A stretch of 64,000 bases of DNA from Minisyncoccota bacterium (GCA_965204115.1 OZ241963.1:596622-660621); one strand, 5' to 3'. Positions 164 through 62,653 are shown, counted from the stretch's first letter. The notes: a model not told the origin generated them from the sequence alone. Program-made: numbers and translations.

Positions 164-179
164 GGTATACTGGAGGTGA

Positions 180-1019
180 ATGAATATCAAAAAAGTAGTA
201 AAACGAAACGGGGTTGTGGTTGATTTTGATCGGGAGATTCTTGAGCGATCGTTGCTGCGCTCCGGTGCGGAGCGGGACCTCGCGCACCGCGTTGCGGTTG
301 ATGTGGAGAAGATTGTTCGGGATGGTGATTCCACGAGTTTGGTGTACAAGAAGGCGTTTGAGATGCTCTATGAGCGGTCGCGGTCAGTGGCGATGCGGTA
401 TTCATTAAAAAAGGCCTTGTTTAACTTCGGTCCGACGGGATTTCCGTTTGAAAAGTTTGTCGCCGAGCTGTTTCGGCGAAAAGGGTATGCCACTCAGACG
501 AATGTGCATTTGCGCGGCGGGTGTATTTCGCATGAGGTTGATGTGCTGGCGATCGGGGCGGAGCGGATTGCTATGGAGATTAAGTTTCATAATGATATGC
601 ATATTCGGTCGGATGTGAAGGCGGTGCTGTATGTGAAGGCGCGGTTTGATGATTTGCTGGGGCGGACCGGTTCGTCGTTCTCGTTTCGTAAGAAAGGCGC
701 GGTTGATAAGTGTGTCCTGGTTACTAACACTAAGTTCACGAAGAATGCACTTGCTTACGCTGAGTGCGCCGGGGTCTCACTGCTTGGTTGGGGGTATCCG
801 TTTCGTGACAACCTCCAGTCGTTTGTGCAGGAGGCGGATGCGCATCCGGTTACCTGCTTGCCCTCACTGTCGCTTTCACTTTTGCGCAATTTGTTTTCTG
901 AAGGGGTGGTAACCTGCAGAGGGCTGCTGGATCGGGATGATTTGCTCCGCGCCCTGCCGAACACCGATGCTATTGTTTCTGAGGCGAAAATGCTGTGCCG
1001 ACCGGGCGGTCAGCGATAA
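180..1019 (+). CDS. ATP-cone domain fused to a Mrr-like restriction-endonuclease catalytic domain
   Basis: The N-terminus VVKRNGVVVDFDREILERSLLRSGAERDLAHRVAVDVEKIV is an ATP-cone like that of NrdR/RNR. The central part FEKFVAELFRRKGY...LRGGCISHEVDVLAIG is an Mrr_cat-like fold. A TATACT hexamer at 166-171 lies 8 nt upstream of the ATG. Confidence 0.6.
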   Translation: MNIKKVVKRNGVVVDFDREILERSLLRSGAERDLAHRVAVDVEKIVRDGDSTSLVYKKAFEMLYERSRSVAMRYSLKKALFNFGPTGFPFEKFVAELFRRKGYATQTNVHLRGGCISHEVDVLAIGAERIAMEIKFHNDMHIRSDVKAVLYVKARFDDLLGRTGSSFSFRKKGAVDKCVLVTNTKFTKNALAYAECAGVSLLGWGYPFRDNLQSFVQEADAHPVTCLPSLSLSLLRNLFSEGVVTCRGLLDRDDLLRALPNTDAIVSEAKMLCRPGGQR

Positions 1020-1028
1020 TATTTTTCT

Positions 1029-1799
1029 ATGAATATACATGCAACACGCAAAAGGAATATTTTTGATCCGGTCAGTAAAGAGCCGTTCGCGCTTTCGCGT
1101 AGTAAGATAGATTTGTTTTTTCAGTGTCCGCGGTGTTTCTATCTGGATAGGCGGCTGGGTGTCGCGCCGCCGCGCGGTTTTCCGTTCAACCTGAATGATG
1201 CGATTGACTTGCTGATGAAGAAAGAGTTTGATCAGTATCGTGAGAAACAGGAACCGCATCCGCTGGTTGTCGCTGAAGGGTTGTCGCTTGTGCCGATGCA
1301 GCACGAGCAGTTGGAGGTATGGCGCAATCCGTTTAAGGGGGTGCGCTACCACCATCAGCCGTCAAACTTTATTGTGTCCGGAGGGGTGGACGATGTGTGG
1401 TGTGATGCCGACGGCACGGTCACCGTTGTTGATTACAAGGCGACAAGTAAGGACGAAGAGGTGACCATTGACGCCGGGTGGCAGGATTCGTATAAGCGGC
1501 AGTTGGAGGTGTATCAGTGGCTGTTTCGTAATAATGGTTTCACGGTTTCTGACACCGGGTATTTTGTATATGCGAACGGTGATCGGTCTGCTGACGATTT
1601 TAATGATGTGTTGCGTTTTAAAACAAAACTGATTCCGTATACCGGCTCTGATGATTGGATTGAGGATGCGCTGATGCGTGCTCGGGAGGTGTTATCGGGA
1701 GATGTGATACCGGAGGCAGGGAAGTGGTGTGATTTTTGTCCGTATCGGGATGCGGCAGGGAAGTCCTTTCGGGCGCATGTGCAGCGGGGCGCCGCGTAG
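1029..1799 (+). CDS. PD-(D/E)XK nuclease with a 4-Cys cluster (Cas4/RecB-like exonuclease family)
   Basis: It has an N-terminal CPRC, a VDDVWCDADGTVTVVDYKAT (D..D/ExK) core and a C-terminal CDFCPYR motif. This is a Cas4-like Fe-S arrangement. Confidence 0.5.
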   Translation: MNIHATRKRNIFDPVSKEPFALSRSKIDLFFQCPRCFYLDRRLGVAPPRGFPFNLNDAIDLLMKKEFDQYREKQEPHPLVVAEGLSLVPMQHEQLEVWRNPFKGVRYHHQPSNFIVSGGVDDVWCDADGTVTVVDYKATSKDEEVTIDAGWQDSYKRQLEVYQWLFRNNGFTVSDTGYFVYANGDRSADDFNDVLRFKTKLIPYTGSDDWIEDALMRAREVLSGDVIPEAGKWCDFCPYRDAAGKSFRAHVQRGAA

Positions 1800-1805
1800 C
1801 TCTTG

Positions 1806-2234
1806 TTATTCTTCTGTGGCAGCTGGTGTTTCGCCGCTCTGTGTTTGCTGCGTGCTTTTTCTGTGTGTTATGGTGCCGACTATGTACAGCAGTGACGGCA
1901 GGGTGATGATTGCTGTGATTATCAGGAGCGTTACACTTTCGTTTATCATGTTGGTGAAGAGGAGGGCGAGCATTGCGAGTGAGAAGGTAAGATGTGCCAC
2001 CGCCAGGTATATGGTGCTCTTTATCGTGTACCGAATAATAAATCCGAGCAGTATAAAGGGTATGCTGATGAAGTTGGTGAGTGCCCATCCGATATACAGT
2101 AGTATTGCTATCTGATGCGTGTTGCCAGTTCCTTGCAGCGTGAGGAGGAAGAGTATTGATAGCGGTACGACCAATGCTGTTGCGATAATGCCGGCTACGC
2201 GGATTATTTTTGGCGTTACTGGTTTCATATGCAT
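1806..2234 (-). CDS. hypothetical multi-TM membrane protein (start taken at an internal Met)
   Basis: It has a long hydrophobic ORF on the minus strand and is divergent from the 2289 gene. The start is uncertain (2234 or 2303). Confidence 0.35.
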   Translation of the reverse strand: MHMKPVTPKIIRVAGIIATALVVPLSILFLLTLQGTGNTHQIAILLYIGWALTNFISIPFILLGFIIRYTIKSTIYLAVAHLTFSLAMLALLFTNMINESVTLLIITAIITLPSLLYIVGTITHRKSTQQTQSGETPAATEE

Positions 2235-2288
2235 AGTATACAGTATTGTGTATATACCCCTGTTTGGTTTTTCGGGTATACTGTTGGC

Positions 2289-60917: not shown

Positions 60918-61055
60918 TGTTTCTCCTCCTCTTTCAGTTTTAAGTTTCAAAAGCGTTATACCGTTGATCTGTCTATACTATATCACAAAACATAAAAAAG
61001 TAAAAATACACACCGTGTGCTGCGTGGCGTCAATAGGGTGGTACACTCTATCTAT

Positions 61056-61874
61056 ATGGAATATGTTCATTACTATCTGCTGTTTATAGGATGTTTCTCT
61101 GGTTTGGTGTTTCTGTTCGGTGCGTGTGTGGGAAGTTTTATGGATGTGACGCGTGTTCGCGCTTCGTGGAAGAAGGTGGTTCGCGGTCGTTCAAAATGTC
61201 GGAGTTGCAAAAAAGAGTTGTGCTGGCATGAGCTGCTGCCGATTGTGTCGTATGTCGTGCTGTGGGGTAGGTGTCGCGGTTGCAAAACATCCATCCCGTT
61301 CTATCACCTCGCGGCTGAGATATTGATGGGGCTGTTTTTCGTCGGCGCTTTCCTCCACGCGCTCGTCGGCGGCTCCCTCTATATCACCGCCACGGTTCTT
61401 CTTTCCGCCCTCTTCTTAGTGCCGATTGTGCTGCAGGATATTGAAACTATGGAAGTGCCGGAACATCTCTCGCTGGTGTTTGCCTATGTCGCGCTCTTTT
61501 TTGGTGTTCTCACCGGCGGTATCGGAGCGATACTCGGCGGTATTGTGCTCGCCCTGCCATTTTTCCTTCTCTGGCTGTTCTCCTCCGGCAAAGCAATGGG
61601 GCTCGGAGATGCGAAAGTTGCTGTTTCGCTCGGGTTCTTGCTGCCATCACTCATAAGTGTGGTCTCTGTGTTTGTGCTTTCATTTTGGGTCGGCCTGGTT
61701 GTGCTGCTCGGCTGCATGCTGTACCAGCTGCTGGCGAAAGGGAAGGTAACCGTACGAAAGGGTATGCGGATCCCGCTGATTCCGTGCATAGCGGCGGCCT
61801 ACTTCCTGGTACTTTTTGCCAACATTTCATTTGTTGATGTGGTGTATGCGGTGCAGTATATGTTTTTTGTATAA
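61056..61874 (+). CDS. pilD: type IV prepilin leader peptidase (A24 family)
   Basis: The N-terminus has the 4-Cys zinc motif CRSC...CRGC. GLGDAKV is the catalytic Asp motif. It is a multi-TM protein. TGgTACACT lies 8 nt upstream of the ATG. Confidence 0.7.
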   Translation: MEYVHYYLLFIGCFSGLVFLFGACVGSFMDVTRVRASWKKVVRGRSKCRSCKKELCWHELLPIVSYVVLWGRCRGCKTSIPFYHLAAEILMGLFFVGAFLHALVGGSLYITATVLLSALFLVPIVLQDIETMEVPEHLSLVFAYVALFFGVLTGGIGAILGGIVLALPFFLLWLFSSGKAMGLGDAKVAVSLGFLLPSLISVVSVFVLSFWVGLVVLLGCMLYQLLAKGKVTVRKGMRIPLIPCIAAAYFLVLFANISFVDVVYAVQYMFFV

Positions 61875-61904
61875 AGTGCCTGCCCGTGCTACACTATCAG
61901 TATT

Positions 61905-61979
61905 GCAGCGGTAGCTCAGCTTGGTTAGAGCGCTCGCCTGTCACGCGAGAGGTCGCGGGTTCAACTCCCGTCCGCTGCG
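61905..61979 (+). tRNA. tRNA-Asp (anticodon GTC)
   Basis: The sequence is GCAGCGGTAGCTCAGCTTGGTTAGAGCGCTCGCCTGTCACGCGAGAGGTCGCGGGTTCAACTCCCGTCCGCTGCG. It has a 7-bp acceptor stem, standard D and T arms, and the anticodon loop CTGTCAC. Confidence 0.9.
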
Positions 61980-62023
61980 CCTTGTAGCGCAAAATCAATG
62001 CGTACCCTGGTACAATGCTTCTT

Positions 62024-62653
62024 ATGACCTATCTATTTTTGGACGAGAGTGGTGATTTGGGATTTAAACATGGGTCAACACGATACTTTATGATTTCACT
62101 TGTGTTGACTGATGACCGTCGCGGCTTGGAAAAGATAGTAAAGCGAATATTCCGTGGTTTCTCAAAAACGGAAAAGAAGAGTCACGGCGGTGTGTTGCAC
62201 GCATATTCAGAAACACCTCAAACACGGAAAAAGATGCTCACCCTCTTTCACGCACATACACAATCTCATGTTTTCGTTATCTGTGTTGATAAGGAAAAAG
62301 TGTCTGCAGACCTTCACAATAAAAAGCACACCCTTTACAATTTTACGGTGGGCACACTACTGAAACGACTCTATGTCGGAGGCATACTTCTCACTGACAA
62401 AAAGGTATGCCTTATCGCTTCACGCAGGGAGACAAATAAATTGTTGAATGAAAATTTCATCACCTATCTCAAAAAACAGACAAAGAAACATAATGCGGAT
62501 ATGCAAATCACCATACGGAAGCAAGATGAAGAAAAAGCGCTGCAGGTTACGGATATAGTGTCATGGGCGGTGTTCCGAAAGTATGAATATCAGGATGACA
62601 CTTACTATTCACTGTTGCAGGATGATATCGTTGAAGAGAGCATGCTCTACTAA
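62024..62653 (+). CDS. DUF3800-family protein (low GC)
   Basis: The N-terminus MTYLFLDESGDLGF matches the DUF3800 start signature. TGgTACAAT lies 7 nt upstream of the ATG. It sits immediately 3' of tRNA-Asp. Confidence 0.55.
   Translation: MTYLFLDESGDLGFKHGSTRYFMISLVLTDDRRGLEKIVKRIFRGFSKTEKKSHGGVLHAYSETPQTRKKMLTLFHAHTQSHVFVICVDKEKVSADLHNKKHTLYNFTVGTLLKRLYVGGILLTDKKVCLIASRRETNKLLNENFITYLKKQTKKHNADMQITIRKQDEEKALQVTDIVSWAVFRKYEYQDDTYYSLLQDDIVEESMLY

What the first reader, a model, noticed from the sequence alone, without database searches (positions are those of the whole stretch)
166..62026. Pervasive leaderless-type promoter architecture: extended -10 (TGnTAYAVT) placed 7-9 nt before the ATG
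The same arrangement recurs at many genes. At alaS the element is at 10318-26 and the ATG at 10335. At proS it is at 20276-84 and the ATG at 20294. At leuS it is at 26636-44 and the ATG at 26654. At the FG-GAP gene it is at 40111-19 and the ATG at 40128. At the basic-protein gene it is at 44529-37 and the ATG at 44547. At serS it is at 59168-76 and the ATG at 59184. At pilD it is at 61039-47 and the ATG at 61056. At the DUF3800 gene it is at 62008-16 and the ATG at 62024. At rpe it is at 14261-69 and the ATG at 14279. At rnhA it is at 29051-56 and the ATG at 29066. At the gene at 180 it is at 166-171. At the minus-strand gene ending at 26329 it is also present. proS and leuS even share a 22-nt block, gtggtaYactgtRgttattATG. 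With a TSS about 7 nt after the hexamer, these mRNAs would start at or within 3 nt of the A of the ATG. Consequently many ORF-track starts (upstream TTG/GTG) are wrong. Only a few genes (10033, 15079, 12279, 58575 and the HNH gene) carry a real spaced GGAGG. The 16S 3' end reads ...CUUCUCCU rather than CCUCC.
Basis: seen in the sequence. Interest (0 to 1): 0.55.

Follow-up and report, generated by a model that had tools for sequence, protein, structure and literature searches.

The report
Leaderless gene starts in a Kaiserbacterium
In this candidate-phyla-radiation (Kaiserbacteria-like) genome about half of the genes have their promoter's -10 box only 6-10 bases before the ATG. Their mRNAs therefore have almost no leader, a known way of starting translation, seen here in a lineage whose 16S rRNA has lost the usual Shine-Dalgarno partner.

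Summary
All cited coordinates check out. I count 23 of about 45 protein genes with an extended -10 box ([T/G]GG-TA[T/C]A[C/A/G]T) 6-10 nt (mode 8-9) before an ATG. TGNTANNNT + 7-9 nt + ATG opening a long ORF occurs 14 times, against 0.41±0.62 in shuffles. Only ATG shows the peak, not GTG or TTG. An E. coli control shows no such peak but a clear SD peak. The motif has no -35 partner. It also precedes tRNA-Asp and 16S rRNA, so it is a promoter and not a ribosome-binding site. The arrangement is conserved at orthologous genes of a syntenic Kaiserbacteria MAG. It recurs in 106 kb of close relatives and in 1.05 Mb of diverse Parcubacteria, where about 57 of 78 proS genes have it. The 16S lacks CCUCC at the canonical position, a loss already reported for about half of Parcubacteria. 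Six genes with perfect AAGGAGGT lack housekeeping annotation; four can be compared with the relative and all four lie in window-specific insertions. Their pairing partner is unexplained. This is a known kind of architecture (GeneMarkS-2 "group C") in a lineage where I found no report of it. TSS mapping is still needed.

The parts
163..182 (+). GGGTATACT -10 box, 8-nt spacer, ATG of Mrr/ATP-cone gene. The spacer is GGAGGTGA, so an SD reading is also possible.
2274..2291 (+). GGGTATACT, 6 nt, ATG 2289 of DUF5671 gene (longest ORF starts at 2229)
4458..4476 (+). TGATAGTAT, 7 nt, ATG 4474 (HTH protein); terminator hairpin just upstream
5942..5960 (+). CGGTACAAT, 7 nt, ATG 5958 of FemAB-family gene
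8516..8536 (-). TGGTACACT, 9 nt, ATG 8518 of DUF2779 gene; divergent from the 8599 promoter
8581..8601 (+). TGTTATACT, 9 nt, ATG 8599 (unknown 231-aa protein)
10318..10337 (+). alaS: TGGTATACT, 8 nt, ATG 10335. Homology to relative L016 starts at 10308; longest ORF starts at 10224.
14261..14281 (+). rpe: TGGTAGTAT, 9 nt, ATG 14279
15686..15705 (+). Ion-channel gene: TTGTATACT, 8 nt, ATG 15703; conserved in L016 from 15685
19647..19666 (+). dNMP-kinase-like gene: GTCTATACT, 8 nt, ATG 19664
20276..20296 (+). proS: TGGTATACT, 9 nt, ATG 20294. Most listed homologues are 414-430 aa (many 417-419), matching this start. Homology to L016 starts at 20275.
21569..21586 (+). RNase T-like exonuclease: GGGTATTAT, 6 nt, ATG 21584
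26327..26346 (-). Small 72-aa gene: TGCTACACT, 8 nt, ATG 26329
26636..26656 (+). leuS: TGGTACACT, 9 nt, ATG 26654 (longest ORF starts at 26630)
29048..29068 (+). rnhA: GGGTATAGT, 9 nt, ATG 29066
29578..29599 (+). OpuAC-type binding protein: GTGTATAGT, 10 nt, ATG 29597
30650..30668 (+). grpE: GGGTATAGT, 7 nt, ATG 30666
40111..40130 (+). FG-GAP/PG-binding gene: TGCTATAGT, 8 nt, ATG 40128
44529..44549 (+). Basic 90-aa protein: TGGTAGAAT, 9 nt, ATG 44547
45419..45438 (+). T4SS-pilin-like gene: TAGTATACT, 8 nt, ATG 45436
59168..59186 (+). serS: TGTTATACT, 7 nt, ATG 59184. A terminator hairpin lies directly upstream; Pfam Seryl_tRNA_N starts at residue 1.
61039..61058 (+). pilD (prepilin peptidase): TGGTACACT, 8 nt, ATG 61056
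62008..62026 (+). DUF3800 gene: TGGTACAAT, 7 nt, ATG 62024
61887..61981 (+). tRNA-Asp with the same box: TGCTACACT, then a 9-nt spacer ending TATT (as in proS and leuS), then the mature 5' end at 61905. This shows the motif is a promoter and not a translation signal.
16540..18336 (+). 16S rRNA transcription unit. Promoter TGGTATACT 16540-48; 16S 16733-18194 (Rfam); conserved ~115-nt structured 3' extension 18195-18308; 3' strand of the processing stem 18309-18327, pairing with 16708-16727. The canonical anti-SD position reads AAUAAUUCAAAU. CUCCU 18202-06 pairs with AGGAG 18211-15.
9953..10236 (+). SD-led accessory gene: TTGACA-17-TATACT promoter, leader, AAGGAGGTG, ATG 10033 (67 aa, no family). 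Absent from the syntenic relative.
12216..12719 (+). SD-led accessory gene: TGGTATCCT promoter, ~45-nt leader, AAGGAGGT, ATG 12279. Absent from the syntenic relative.
15013..15537 (+). SD-led accessory gene: perfect TTGACA-17-TGTTATAAT promoter, AAGGAGGT, ATG 15079. Absent from the syntenic relative.
18460..19120 (+). SD-led SocA/Panacea-domain gene (ATG 18593). Its 61-bp promoter+SD block (TGGTATACT...GGTGGAGGTG) is tandemly duplicated at 18460-18581.
58490..59102 (+). SD-led gene: TATACT promoter, ~70-nt leader, AAAAGGAGA, ATG 58575 (no family)
60534..60990 (-). SD-led gene on the minus strand: TATAGT promoter, leader, GAGGAGGAG, ATG 60917 (no family)

Best explanation
These are housekeeping-sigma (sigma-70-type) promoters of the extended -10, -35-independent class, with consensus [T/G]GG-TA[T/C]A[C/A/G]T. 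They sit 6-10 nt (mode 8-9) upstream of the ATG of the first gene of most transcription units. RNA polymerase starting about 7-8 nt after the hexamer would give mRNAs whose 5' end is the A of the AUG or lies 1-3 nt before it (typically 5'-RU-AUG or 5'-AUU-AUG). Such mRNAs cannot carry a Shine-Dalgarno sequence and would be translated by the leaderless, 5'-AUG-dependent route. Operon-internal genes (rpiB, dnaG, holB, rpoC, rplL, PBP) overlap or abut the preceding stop and probably reinitiate. A few long-leader genes (rplJ, rpoB, the giant ORF) have A/U-rich, SD-free start regions. This fits an organism whose 16S rRNA has no CCUCC at the canonical 3' position. The trait belongs to the lineage (Kaiserbacteria and, more widely, Parcubacteria), not to this window alone.

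Shown: motif, spacing, enrichment, ATG specificity, conservation, promoter identity by context, and absence of the canonical anti-SD in the gene.

Inferred: the TSS positions, the translation route and the mature 16S 3' end.
For: Sites and logo. 23 sites were tabulated, with d=6(2), 7(5), 8(8), 9(7), 10(1). The logo shows T/A/T of TAnnnT plus G at -14/-13, and no information (<0.35 bit per position) from -40 to -6.

Enrichment. Counts are 14-17 observed vs about 0.4-0.6 in shuffles, and about 10-fold over other offsets.

Start codon. Only ATG peaks; GTG and TTG do not, in the window, in close relatives and in 1.05 Mb of Parcubacteria.

Promoter identity. The same box precedes tRNA-Asp at the same 9-nt distance and the 16S gene with a ~185-nt leader. 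It lies 35-140 nt before the ATG of genes with a long leader, SD-led or not. Terminator hairpins directly precede several boxes. The classical two-hexamer promoter scan is not enriched: 21 vs 19+-4.6.

Starts. Pfam models begin at residues 1-5 of the ATG-started proteins. Most listed ProS homologues are 414-430 aa, many of them 417-419.

Conservation. In syntenic L016 (ProS 87% identical) alaS, gap, rpiB, rpe, the ion-channel gene and proS all keep a -10 box at d=6-9. blastn homology starts 1-27 nt before each ATG.

Replication. Close relatives give 4, 4, 13, 4 at d=6-9 vs about 1.5 background. Across Parcubacteria, about 57 of 78 proS loci and a pooled peak of 84, 58, 34, 34, 23 at d=6-10 vs about 10 background.

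Control. E. coli 50 kb shows no -10-to-ATG peak but a clear SD peak.

Anti-SD. The canonical anti-SD is replaced. Tsurumaki et al. 2022 (PMC9297842) report the anti-SD motif in only 48% of Parcubacteria.

TSS signal. A Y-R dinucleotide sits at spacer positions 6/7 (81%/86% in the d=8 class), and a pyrimidine at -1.
Against: - No transcript 5' ends or protein N-termini are available, so the TSS is inferred from the E. coli rule (about 7 nt after the hexamer; my own knowledge).
- The modal spacing here (8-9) is 2 nt longer than in other Parcubacteria (6-7) and in M. tuberculosis (6-8, PMC6028130). Many of these mRNAs would therefore carry 2-3 nt before the AUG, or the polymerase would have to start unusually far from the hexamer. 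In E. coli, extra 5' nucleotides weaken leaderless translation (own knowledge).
- Read-through from upstream genes is not excluded where no terminator is seen (for example rpiB to rpe).
- Six genes keep perfect, well-spaced AAGGAGGT. This implies that some SD-reading capacity exists, or that these genes are recent imports.
- Gene 180 has GGAGGTGA in its spacer and is ambiguous.
Confidence: 0.8

Rival explanations
1. The boxes are real promoters, but the mRNAs are not truly leaderless. Transcription starts at the canonical position 7 after the hexamer and leaves a fixed 2-3-nt leader (RU-AUG, AUU-AUG). The ribosomes of this clade then recognise this leader in a way that differs from classical 5'-AUG leaderless initiation.
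For: In the d=8 class, spacer positions 6, 7 and 8 are Y (81%), R (86%) and Y (81%). proS, leuS and tRNA-Asp share a 9-nt spacer ending TATT; for the tRNA this cannot be related to an AUG. Spacing is shifted by +2 relative to other Parcubacteria.
Against: A pyrimidine at -1 followed by A of the ATG is an equally good start dinucleotide and is present in 17/23 sites. Spacings range from 6 to 10, so no single leader length is conserved. This differs from the best explanation only in detail, and both predict SD-independent initiation.
Confidence: 0.35
2. The TAnnnT motif is a non-SD ribosome-binding or translation-enhancer element inside longer leaders (GeneMarkS-2 'group B'-like), not a promoter.
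For: The motif lies at an RBS-like distance from the start. SD is rare and the canonical anti-SD is absent.
Against: The motif precedes tRNA-Asp and 16S rRNA. It occurs 35-140 nt upstream of the ATG in genes with a long leader. Operon-internal genes lack it. Its invariant positions are those of a -10 hexamer plus TG/GG extension. Only ATG starts show it. Sequence conservation with the relative begins at the motif.
Confidence: 0.04
3. The UGGUAY part of the motif is an mRNA element that pairs with the invariant UGGUACC loop of the conserved 16S 3' extension, forming a replacement SD/anti-SD pair.
For: TGGTAC is invariant in the hairpin-3 loop of the extension in six genomes. Because GGTACC is palindromic, the loop is complementary to UGGUAY.
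Against: The motif would have to be transcribed, which needs another promoter upstream, and none is seen. The motif also precedes stable-RNA genes. Other Parcubacteria have the TAnnnT-to-ATG arrangement without TGG. The loop can instead pair internally with the downstream GUACY.
Confidence: 0.02
4. Chance or compositional artefact: T/A-rich intergenic DNA next to ATGs produces TAnnnT matches.
For: The loose TANNNT pattern alone is only weakly enriched at d=7-9 in the window: 37 vs 6.7 in shuffles, but a high background at other offsets.
Against: The specific 9-mer class is about 30-fold enriched. The peak is sharp in offset and specific to ATG. It is conserved at orthologues and absent in the E. 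coli control.
Confidence: 0.01

Closest known systems
GeneMarkS-2 'group C' genomes (bacteria with frequent leaderless transcription, e.g. Mycobacterium tuberculosis and other Actinobacteria, Deinococcus-Thermus; Lomsadze et al. 2018, PMC6028130)
   Same: A Pribnow-type -10 box sits at a fixed short distance from the start of first genes in operons. A large fraction of transcription units is affected. A second class of genes has an RBS.
   Different: Here 23 of about 38 non-internal genes show it, against 25-50% of operons in group C. The spacing mode is 8-9 nt, against 6-8. Only ATG is used. The box is of the extended TGG/GGG type with no -35. GC is 50%, whereas code-11 group C genomes are almost all high-GC. 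The 16S lacks the canonical anti-SD, and operon-internal genes lack SD. The paper does not mention Parcubacteria or candidate phyla.
Anti-SD-less Parcubacteria (Tsurumaki et al. 2022, RNA 28:1041, PMC9297842)
   Same: The lineage is the same. The 16S of the window and of 10 related genomes lacks CCUCC at the canonical position. The paper reports the motif in only 48% of Parcubacteria and infers that SD helices do not form.
   Different: In the passages returned by my term search, that paper does not say how translation then starts. This analysis supplies a candidate answer (leaderless architecture). It also describes what replaces the tail: a conserved ~115-nt structured extension with a covarying pyrimidine-arm hairpin.
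Bacteroidota/FCB 'group B' SD-independent initiation
   Same: SD is rarely used. A few genes keep strong SDs.
   Different: Those organisms keep the anti-SD and use leadered mRNAs with an A-rich motif upstream of all genes, including operon-internal ones. Here the motif is a promoter, is absent from internal genes, and the anti-SD sequence itself is replaced.
Extended -10 (TGn) promoters of E. coli and Gram-positive bacteria
   Same: TG/GG lies immediately upstream of TAnnnT, and the -35 is dispensable.
   Different: Here it appears to be the default promoter type rather than a minority class. G at -13 is as conserved as G at -14.
Archaeal leaderless genomes (GeneMarkS-2 group D)
   Same: The majority of transcription units are leaderless, and the promoter lies at a fixed distance from the start codon.
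   Different: Archaea use a TATA box/BRE at about 22-26 nt and an archaeal polymerase. Here it is a bacterial -10 box at 6-10 nt.

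Membership tests
Leaderless-transcription genome class (GeneMarkS-2 group C) | Pribnow-type motif localised at a fixed short distance (about 6-10 nt) upstream of starts of first genes in operons | tested here: met
   Peak at d=7-9 in the window, d=6-9 in close relatives and d=6-10 in 1.05 Mb of Parcubacteria. No peak in E. coli.
Leaderless-transcription genome class (GeneMarkS-2 group C) | A substantial fraction (>=25%) of transcription units affected | tested here: met
   23 of about 45 genes, or about 23 of 38 genes that are not operon-internal
Leaderless-transcription genome class (GeneMarkS-2 group C) | Remaining genes (operon-internal and leadered first genes) use an SD-type RBS | tested here: not met
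   Only 6 genes have an SD. Operon-internal genes (rplL, holB, rpiB, rpoC, dnaG, PBP) and long-leader genes (rplJ, rpoB, the giant ORF) have none.
Leaderless-transcription genome class (GeneMarkS-2 group C) | Transcript 5' end coincides with the start codon (dRNA-seq) | not testable with these tools
   No transcript data. Spacer composition allows a TSS at the A or 1-3 nt upstream.
Extended -10 sigma-70 promoters | TAnnnT hexamer with TG (or G) at -15/-14 | tested here: met
   T 15/23 at -15, G 19/23 at -14, G 17/23 at -13
Extended -10 sigma-70 promoters | No requirement for a -35 hexamer | tested here: met
   Information <0.35 bit at every position from -40 to -6. The two-hexamer scan is not above shuffles.
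Extended -10 sigma-70 promoters | Drives transcription initiation about 7 nt downstream | not testable with these tools
   Supported only by context: the same box precedes tRNA-Asp and 16S rRNA.
Canonical SD/anti-SD initiation | CCUCC in the single-stranded 3' tail of 16S rRNA directly after helix 45 | tested here: not met
   The Rfam alignment puts GGAAUAAUUCAAAU opposite GGAUCACCUCCUUU. No CCTCC occurs on the + strand between 18000 and 20400. The tail is the same in 5 related genomes.
Canonical SD/anti-SD initiation | SD motif enriched 5-10 nt upstream of most starts | tested here: not met
   There is only a faint bump in the window and none in 1.05 Mb of Parcubacteria, against a clear peak in E. 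coli.
Non-SD RBS genomes (GeneMarkS-2 group B) | The same motif lies upstream of all genes, including operon-internal ones, within leadered mRNAs | tested here: not met
   The motif is absent from operon-internal genes and present before stable-RNA genes.

The most novel reading that the evidence does not exclude
In the Parcubacteria that lack an anti-SD, leaderless or 2-3-nt-leader initiation from -35-independent extended -10 promoters has become the default way of expressing genes, replacing SD/anti-SD pairing. In parallel, the 16S 3' tail has been rebuilt into a conserved ~115-nt structured extension. Its first hairpin locks a pyrimidine-rich remnant of the anti-SD (CUCCU, CCUCC, CCUUC, CUCUC) against a cis SD-like arm. 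The Kaiserbacteria clade has moved the -10-to-AUG distance by +2 nt, which implies either altered start-site choice by its RNA polymerase or ribosomes that accept a short fixed leader. The few canonical SDs belong to recently imported accessory genes with no cognate partner.
Probability: 0.4. Interest if true: 0.75.

Novelty: new member of a known kind. Interest (0 to 1): 0.6.

Why it matters
1. It offers a concrete answer to a question left open when the anti-SD was found missing in about half of Parcubacteria: how do these ribosomes find start codons? For most transcription units the mRNA would simply begin at the start codon.

2. It extends the set of leaderless-dominated bacteria, so far mainly Actinobacteria, Deinococcus-Thermus and some Mollicutes, to the Candidate Phyla Radiation. 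This is a mid-GC, deep-branching, ultra-small-cell lineage, and so bears on arguments that leaderless initiation is ancestral or favoured by genome reduction.

3. It has practical value. SD-centred gene callers misplace starts in CPR MAGs. About 19 of 45 longest-ORF starts in the window are displaced, and several start calls in the ENA relative L001 are wrong. A -10-box start model would fix this.

4. It defines the native promoter ([T/G]GGTAYAMT, no -35). That is useful for reading operon structure and for future genetic tools in CPR bacteria.

Tried and rejected
- **A downstream 16S exon carrying the anti-SD** (an intron or insertion, common in CPR). No CCTCC occurs on the + strand for 2 kb downstream. 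The pre-16S processing stem closes at 18309-18327.
- **CUUCUCCU as a relocated anti-SD.** The arm covaries with its hairpin partner: 4 of 6 pairs show compensatory changes. In L016's genome the arm is CUCUC while the SDs remain GGAGGT. In L012 the arm is CCUUC while the SDs are AAGGAG(G). So the SDs do not track the arm.
- **Phage origin of the SD-led genes.** Only the Panacea-domain protein hits PHROGs. The other five have no Pfam, PHROG or phage tblastn match. Accessory status rests on synteny only.
- **Linking anti-SD status to leaderless architecture locus by locus.** None of the 80 metagenome loci contains a 16S 3' end.
- **Literature.** 'leaderless' was combined in turn with Candidate Phyla Radiation, Patescibacteria, Parcubacteria, Saccharibacteria and OD1. 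These searches gave only reference-list or unrelated hits. The library lacks most subscription journals, so absence of a report is not proven.
- **SD enrichment by offset histogram in the window.** This was uninformative because AGGAG is frequent in coding sequence.
- **argS, gap, MscS-like, 44853 and gene 1029.** These have either atypical spacing (d=4, 13, 6) or no clear box. I did not count them as leaderless-type.

Full report
**What the window is.** The window is 64 kb with 50.6% GC, and nearly all genes lie on the + strand. ProS has hundreds of homologues. The closest (85-95% identical) come from metagenome assemblies, and the named ones are Candidatus Kaiserbacteria, Parcubacteria or Paceibacterota, that is Candidate Phyla Radiation (CPR). 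Contigs that share the lineage-specific 16S h44/h45 sequence carry the same names. It adds argS, gap, rpiB, grpE, rplJ, rplL, rpoB, rpoC, dnaG, a PBP and others.

**Checking the observation.** Listing all TGNTANNNT sites and the upstream region of every long ORF revealed 11 more cases. In total, 23 genes have a box 6-10 nt before an ATG: d=6 twice, 7 five times, 8 eight times, 9 seven times and 10 once.
- The arrangement is far beyond chance. TG.TA...T + 7-9 nt + an ATG opening >=60 codons occurs 14 times, against 0.41±0.62 (maximum 2) in 200 dinucleotide shuffles. TAYAVT gives 17 against 0.57±0.72.
- In the real sequence, the other 28 offsets together hold only 16 such ATGs, about 1.7 expected for three offsets.
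- An E. coli 50-kb control analysed in the same way has no such peak but a clear SD peak.

**Promoter or ribosome-binding site?** The aligned sites give [T/G]-G-G-T-A-[T/C]-A-[C/A/G]-T. No position between -40 and -6 carries more than 0.35 bit, so this is an extended -10 box without a -35. A classical two-hexamer scan is accordingly not enriched: 21 against 19±4.6. Several observations identify the box as a promoter.
- It precedes tRNA-Asp. The sequence TGCTACACT is followed by a 9-nt spacer ending TATT, like proS and leuS, and then by the mature 5' end.
- It precedes the 16S gene with a ~185-nt leader.
- It lies 35-140 nt before the ATG of genes that have a long leader, whether SD-led or not, such as rplJ and rpoB.
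- Terminator hairpins directly precede several boxes: serS, 4474, gap and 5958.
- Operon-internal genes (rplL, holB, rpiB, rpoC, dnaG, PBP) lack the box and overlap or abut the previous stop.
- Only ATG, not GTG or TTG, shows the distance peak in the window, in close relatives and in distant relatives. This is what leaderless initiation predicts, and an RBS would not predict it.

**Are the ATGs the true starts?** Pfam models begin at residues 1-5 of the ATG-started SerS, AlaS, ArgS, RnhA, Rpe, RpiB, Gap and DUF3800 proteins. Most listed ProS homologues are 414-430 aa long, many of them 417-419. A Kaiserbacteria MAG contig (L016/L013, JAPOOC010000008.1, ProS 87% identical) is syntenic with window 9.1-21.5 kb. 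blastn homology begins at 10308 (alaS ATG 10335), 12817 (gap ATG 12818), 15685 (ATG 15703), 16537 (16S promoter at 16540) and 20275 (proS ATG 20294). Conservation therefore starts at the box, not at the upstream GTG/TTG.

**Conservation and breadth.**
- In L016 the orthologues of alaS, gap, rpiB, rpe, the ion-channel gene and proS, and also the transketolase genes, all have a -10 box at d=6-10.
- Five 21-kb loci from relatives (ProS 67-88% identical) give 4, 4, 13, 4 at d=6-9 against about 1.5 background.
- A metagenome scan with a ProS alignment returned 80 loci totalling 1.05 Mb, with ProS 57-66% identical, representing diverse Parcubacteria. About 57 of 78 proS genes have TANNNT 6-10 nt before the ATG, and about 2 have an SD.
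- The pooled peak is 84, 58, 34, 34, 23 at d=6-10 against about 10 background. The excess corresponds to roughly 330 starts. SD motifs show no positional peak.
- The architecture is therefore a lineage trait. The modal spacing differs, however: 6-7 nt in the broad set and 8-9 in the Kaiserbacteria clade.

**Where would transcription start?** In the d=8 class (window plus close relatives, n=21), spacer positions 6, 7 and 8 are Y 81%, R 86% and Y 81%, followed by the A of the ATG. Two good Y-R start dinucleotides are thus present. One is at position 7, the canonical distance by my own knowledge of E. coli, and gives a 2-nt leader. The other is at the A itself. The TATT shared by proS, leuS and tRNA-Asp favours position 7 for d=9, giving a 3-nt leader. 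For d=6-7 the A of the ATG falls at position 7-8. Which of these holds needs 5'-end mapping.

**The 16S claim.**
- Rfam places the 16S at 16733-18194. It aligns GGAAUAAUUCAAAU opposite the consensus GGAUCACCUCCUUU. No CCTCC occurs on the + strand in the next 2 kb.
It is the 5' arm of the hairpin UCUCCU-GAAA-AGGAGA.
- Five related genomes share the tail, and their hairpin arms covary: CUCCU/AGGAG, CCUCC/GGAGG, CCUUC/GAAGG and CUCUC/GAGAG. Four of six pairs show compensatory changes, and 89% of cells are paired against 50-62% in slid controls.
- The hairpin opens a ~115-nt conserved, structured stretch. This stretch ends at the 3' strand of the pre-16S processing stem (18309-18327, pairing with 16708-16727).
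- Loss of the anti-SD motif in part of Parcubacteria is published (Tsurumaki et al. 2022). I did not find the extension or the leaderless link described there. That paper was only searched by term, not read in full.

**The SD-led minority.** Six genes (10033, 12279, 15079, 18593, 58575, 60917-) have promoters, leaders of 30-70 nt, and canonical, well-spaced AAGGAGGT-type SDs. None has a housekeeping annotation, and 18593 is a Panacea-domain protein. The four that lie in the region comparable with L016 all sit in window-specific insertions between conserved leaderless blocks. Two of them carry the only full TTGACA-17-TATAmT promoters found in the first 20 kb scanned. Relatives have similar rare SD-led genes whose SD does not follow the hairpin arm. 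What these SDs pair with is unexplained. Recent import is my best guess.

**Comparison with what is known.** The architecture matches GeneMarkS-2 'group C': a Pribnow box about 6-8 nt from the start, 25-50% of operons, and mainly Actinobacteria and Deinococcus-Thermus. Code-11 group C genomes are almost all high-GC. It differs in several ways:
- a higher fraction of affected genes;
- spacing 2 nt longer;
- use of ATG only;
- the extended -10 box;
- lack of SD on internal genes;
- loss of the anti-SD.

Literature searches combining 'leaderless' with CPR names found no description. The only CPR organism with TSS-like data in the library is Nanosynbacter lyticus, with TSSs inferred from RNA-seq.

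**Verdict.** This is a real, conserved, lineage-wide feature. It is a new member of a known kind and of moderate-to-good interest because it explains initiation in anti-SD-less Parcubacteria. TSS mapping is the missing proof.

Noticed in passing
window 18195-18336 (also L003, L006, L009, L012, L013): A conserved ~115-nt structured stretch lies between 16S helix 45 and the pre-16S processing stem. It starts with the invariant AAUAAUUCAA[A/G]UGAAA. Next comes a hairpin whose pyrimidine arm covaries with a purine arm, then a variable hairpin, then GGACA-(N)UGGUACC(N)-UGUCC, and then a CCGG/CCGG hairpin. It may be a 3' expansion of the mature 16S or a conserved processed spacer.
   Followed up: partly
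window 9953-10236, 12216-12719, 15013-15537, 18460-19120, 58490-59102, 60534-60990(-): Six genes have canonical AAGGAGGT-type SDs at proper spacing in an organism without a canonical anti-SD. Four of them lie in insertions absent from the syntenic relative L016. Two have perfect or near-perfect TTGACA-17-TATAAT/TATACT promoters, unlike the native -35-less promoters.
   Followed up: partly
window 18460-18581: An exact tandem duplication (61 bp x 2) of a promoter + SD block (TGGTATACT...GGTGGAGGTG) lies in front of the SocA/Panacea-domain gene, between the 16S and proS.
   Followed up: no
window 16733-18194 and the whole window: The 16S gene stands alone. No 23S or 5S is found in the following 46 kb, so the rRNA genes are unlinked. 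The 16S has its own TGGTATACT promoter at 16540.
   Followed up: no
window 18071 and 18147: In helix 44 the E. coli U1406-U1495 pair is replaced by C-G, and C1409 by A (numbering from my own knowledge, read off the Rfam alignment). This is the aminoglycoside-binding and decoding region.
   Followed up: no
window 45859-46024 and 46060-46400: A perfect 55-bp x 3 tandem repeat, each unit holding two hairpins, is followed by two copies of a ~170-bp AT-rich element that carries TTGACAGAAAG. These lie in the 650-bp gap before the giant gene.
   Followed up: no
window 46508-58432: A single 3,974-aa ORF with an AT-rich, SD-free start region. It was not analysed. A 3,281-aa counterpart lies near proS in relative L001.
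   Followed up: no
window 22880-23564: A 348-bp x 2 repeat (98% identical) lies inside the Big_5/CopC-domain surface protein gene. This gene has a TGGTATACT promoter at 22249 and a leader (..CATATCTGGTGTGT..TCAGATATT..) that is also seen in L001.
   Followed up: no
window ~26345-26480, minus strand: A TATACT box is followed by ~130 nt without an ORF, ending in a strong hairpin (GCCTTTCTGCGTTTTATACCAAAACGCAGAAAGGC). This may be a small non-coding RNA. No Rfam hit.
   Followed up: no
window 2229-4385: rplJ-rplL are preceded by a DUF5671 membrane-protein gene and not by rplK-rplA. rplJ has a ~130-nt SD-free leader from a TATACT promoter at about 3226. This is compatible with the uL1-lacking Parcubacteria group that Tsurumaki et al. 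link to anti-SD loss, but L1 absence was not tested.
   Followed up: no
L015 13104-20435 (minus strand): Seven tandem paralogous genes sit in a relative. Each starts MADICxELRKQL and is preceded by the same sequence CCATGCTACCTTACTCTTGGT-ATG (TGCTACCTT box, 8-nt spacer). It is a duplicated leaderless cassette.
   Followed up: no
L017-L096 versus window, L001, L002, L014-L016: The -10-to-ATG spacing peaks at 6-7 nt in diverse Parcubacteria but at 8-9 nt in the Kaiserbacteria clade. The TGG/GGG extension is also much more frequent in the latter.
   Followed up: partly
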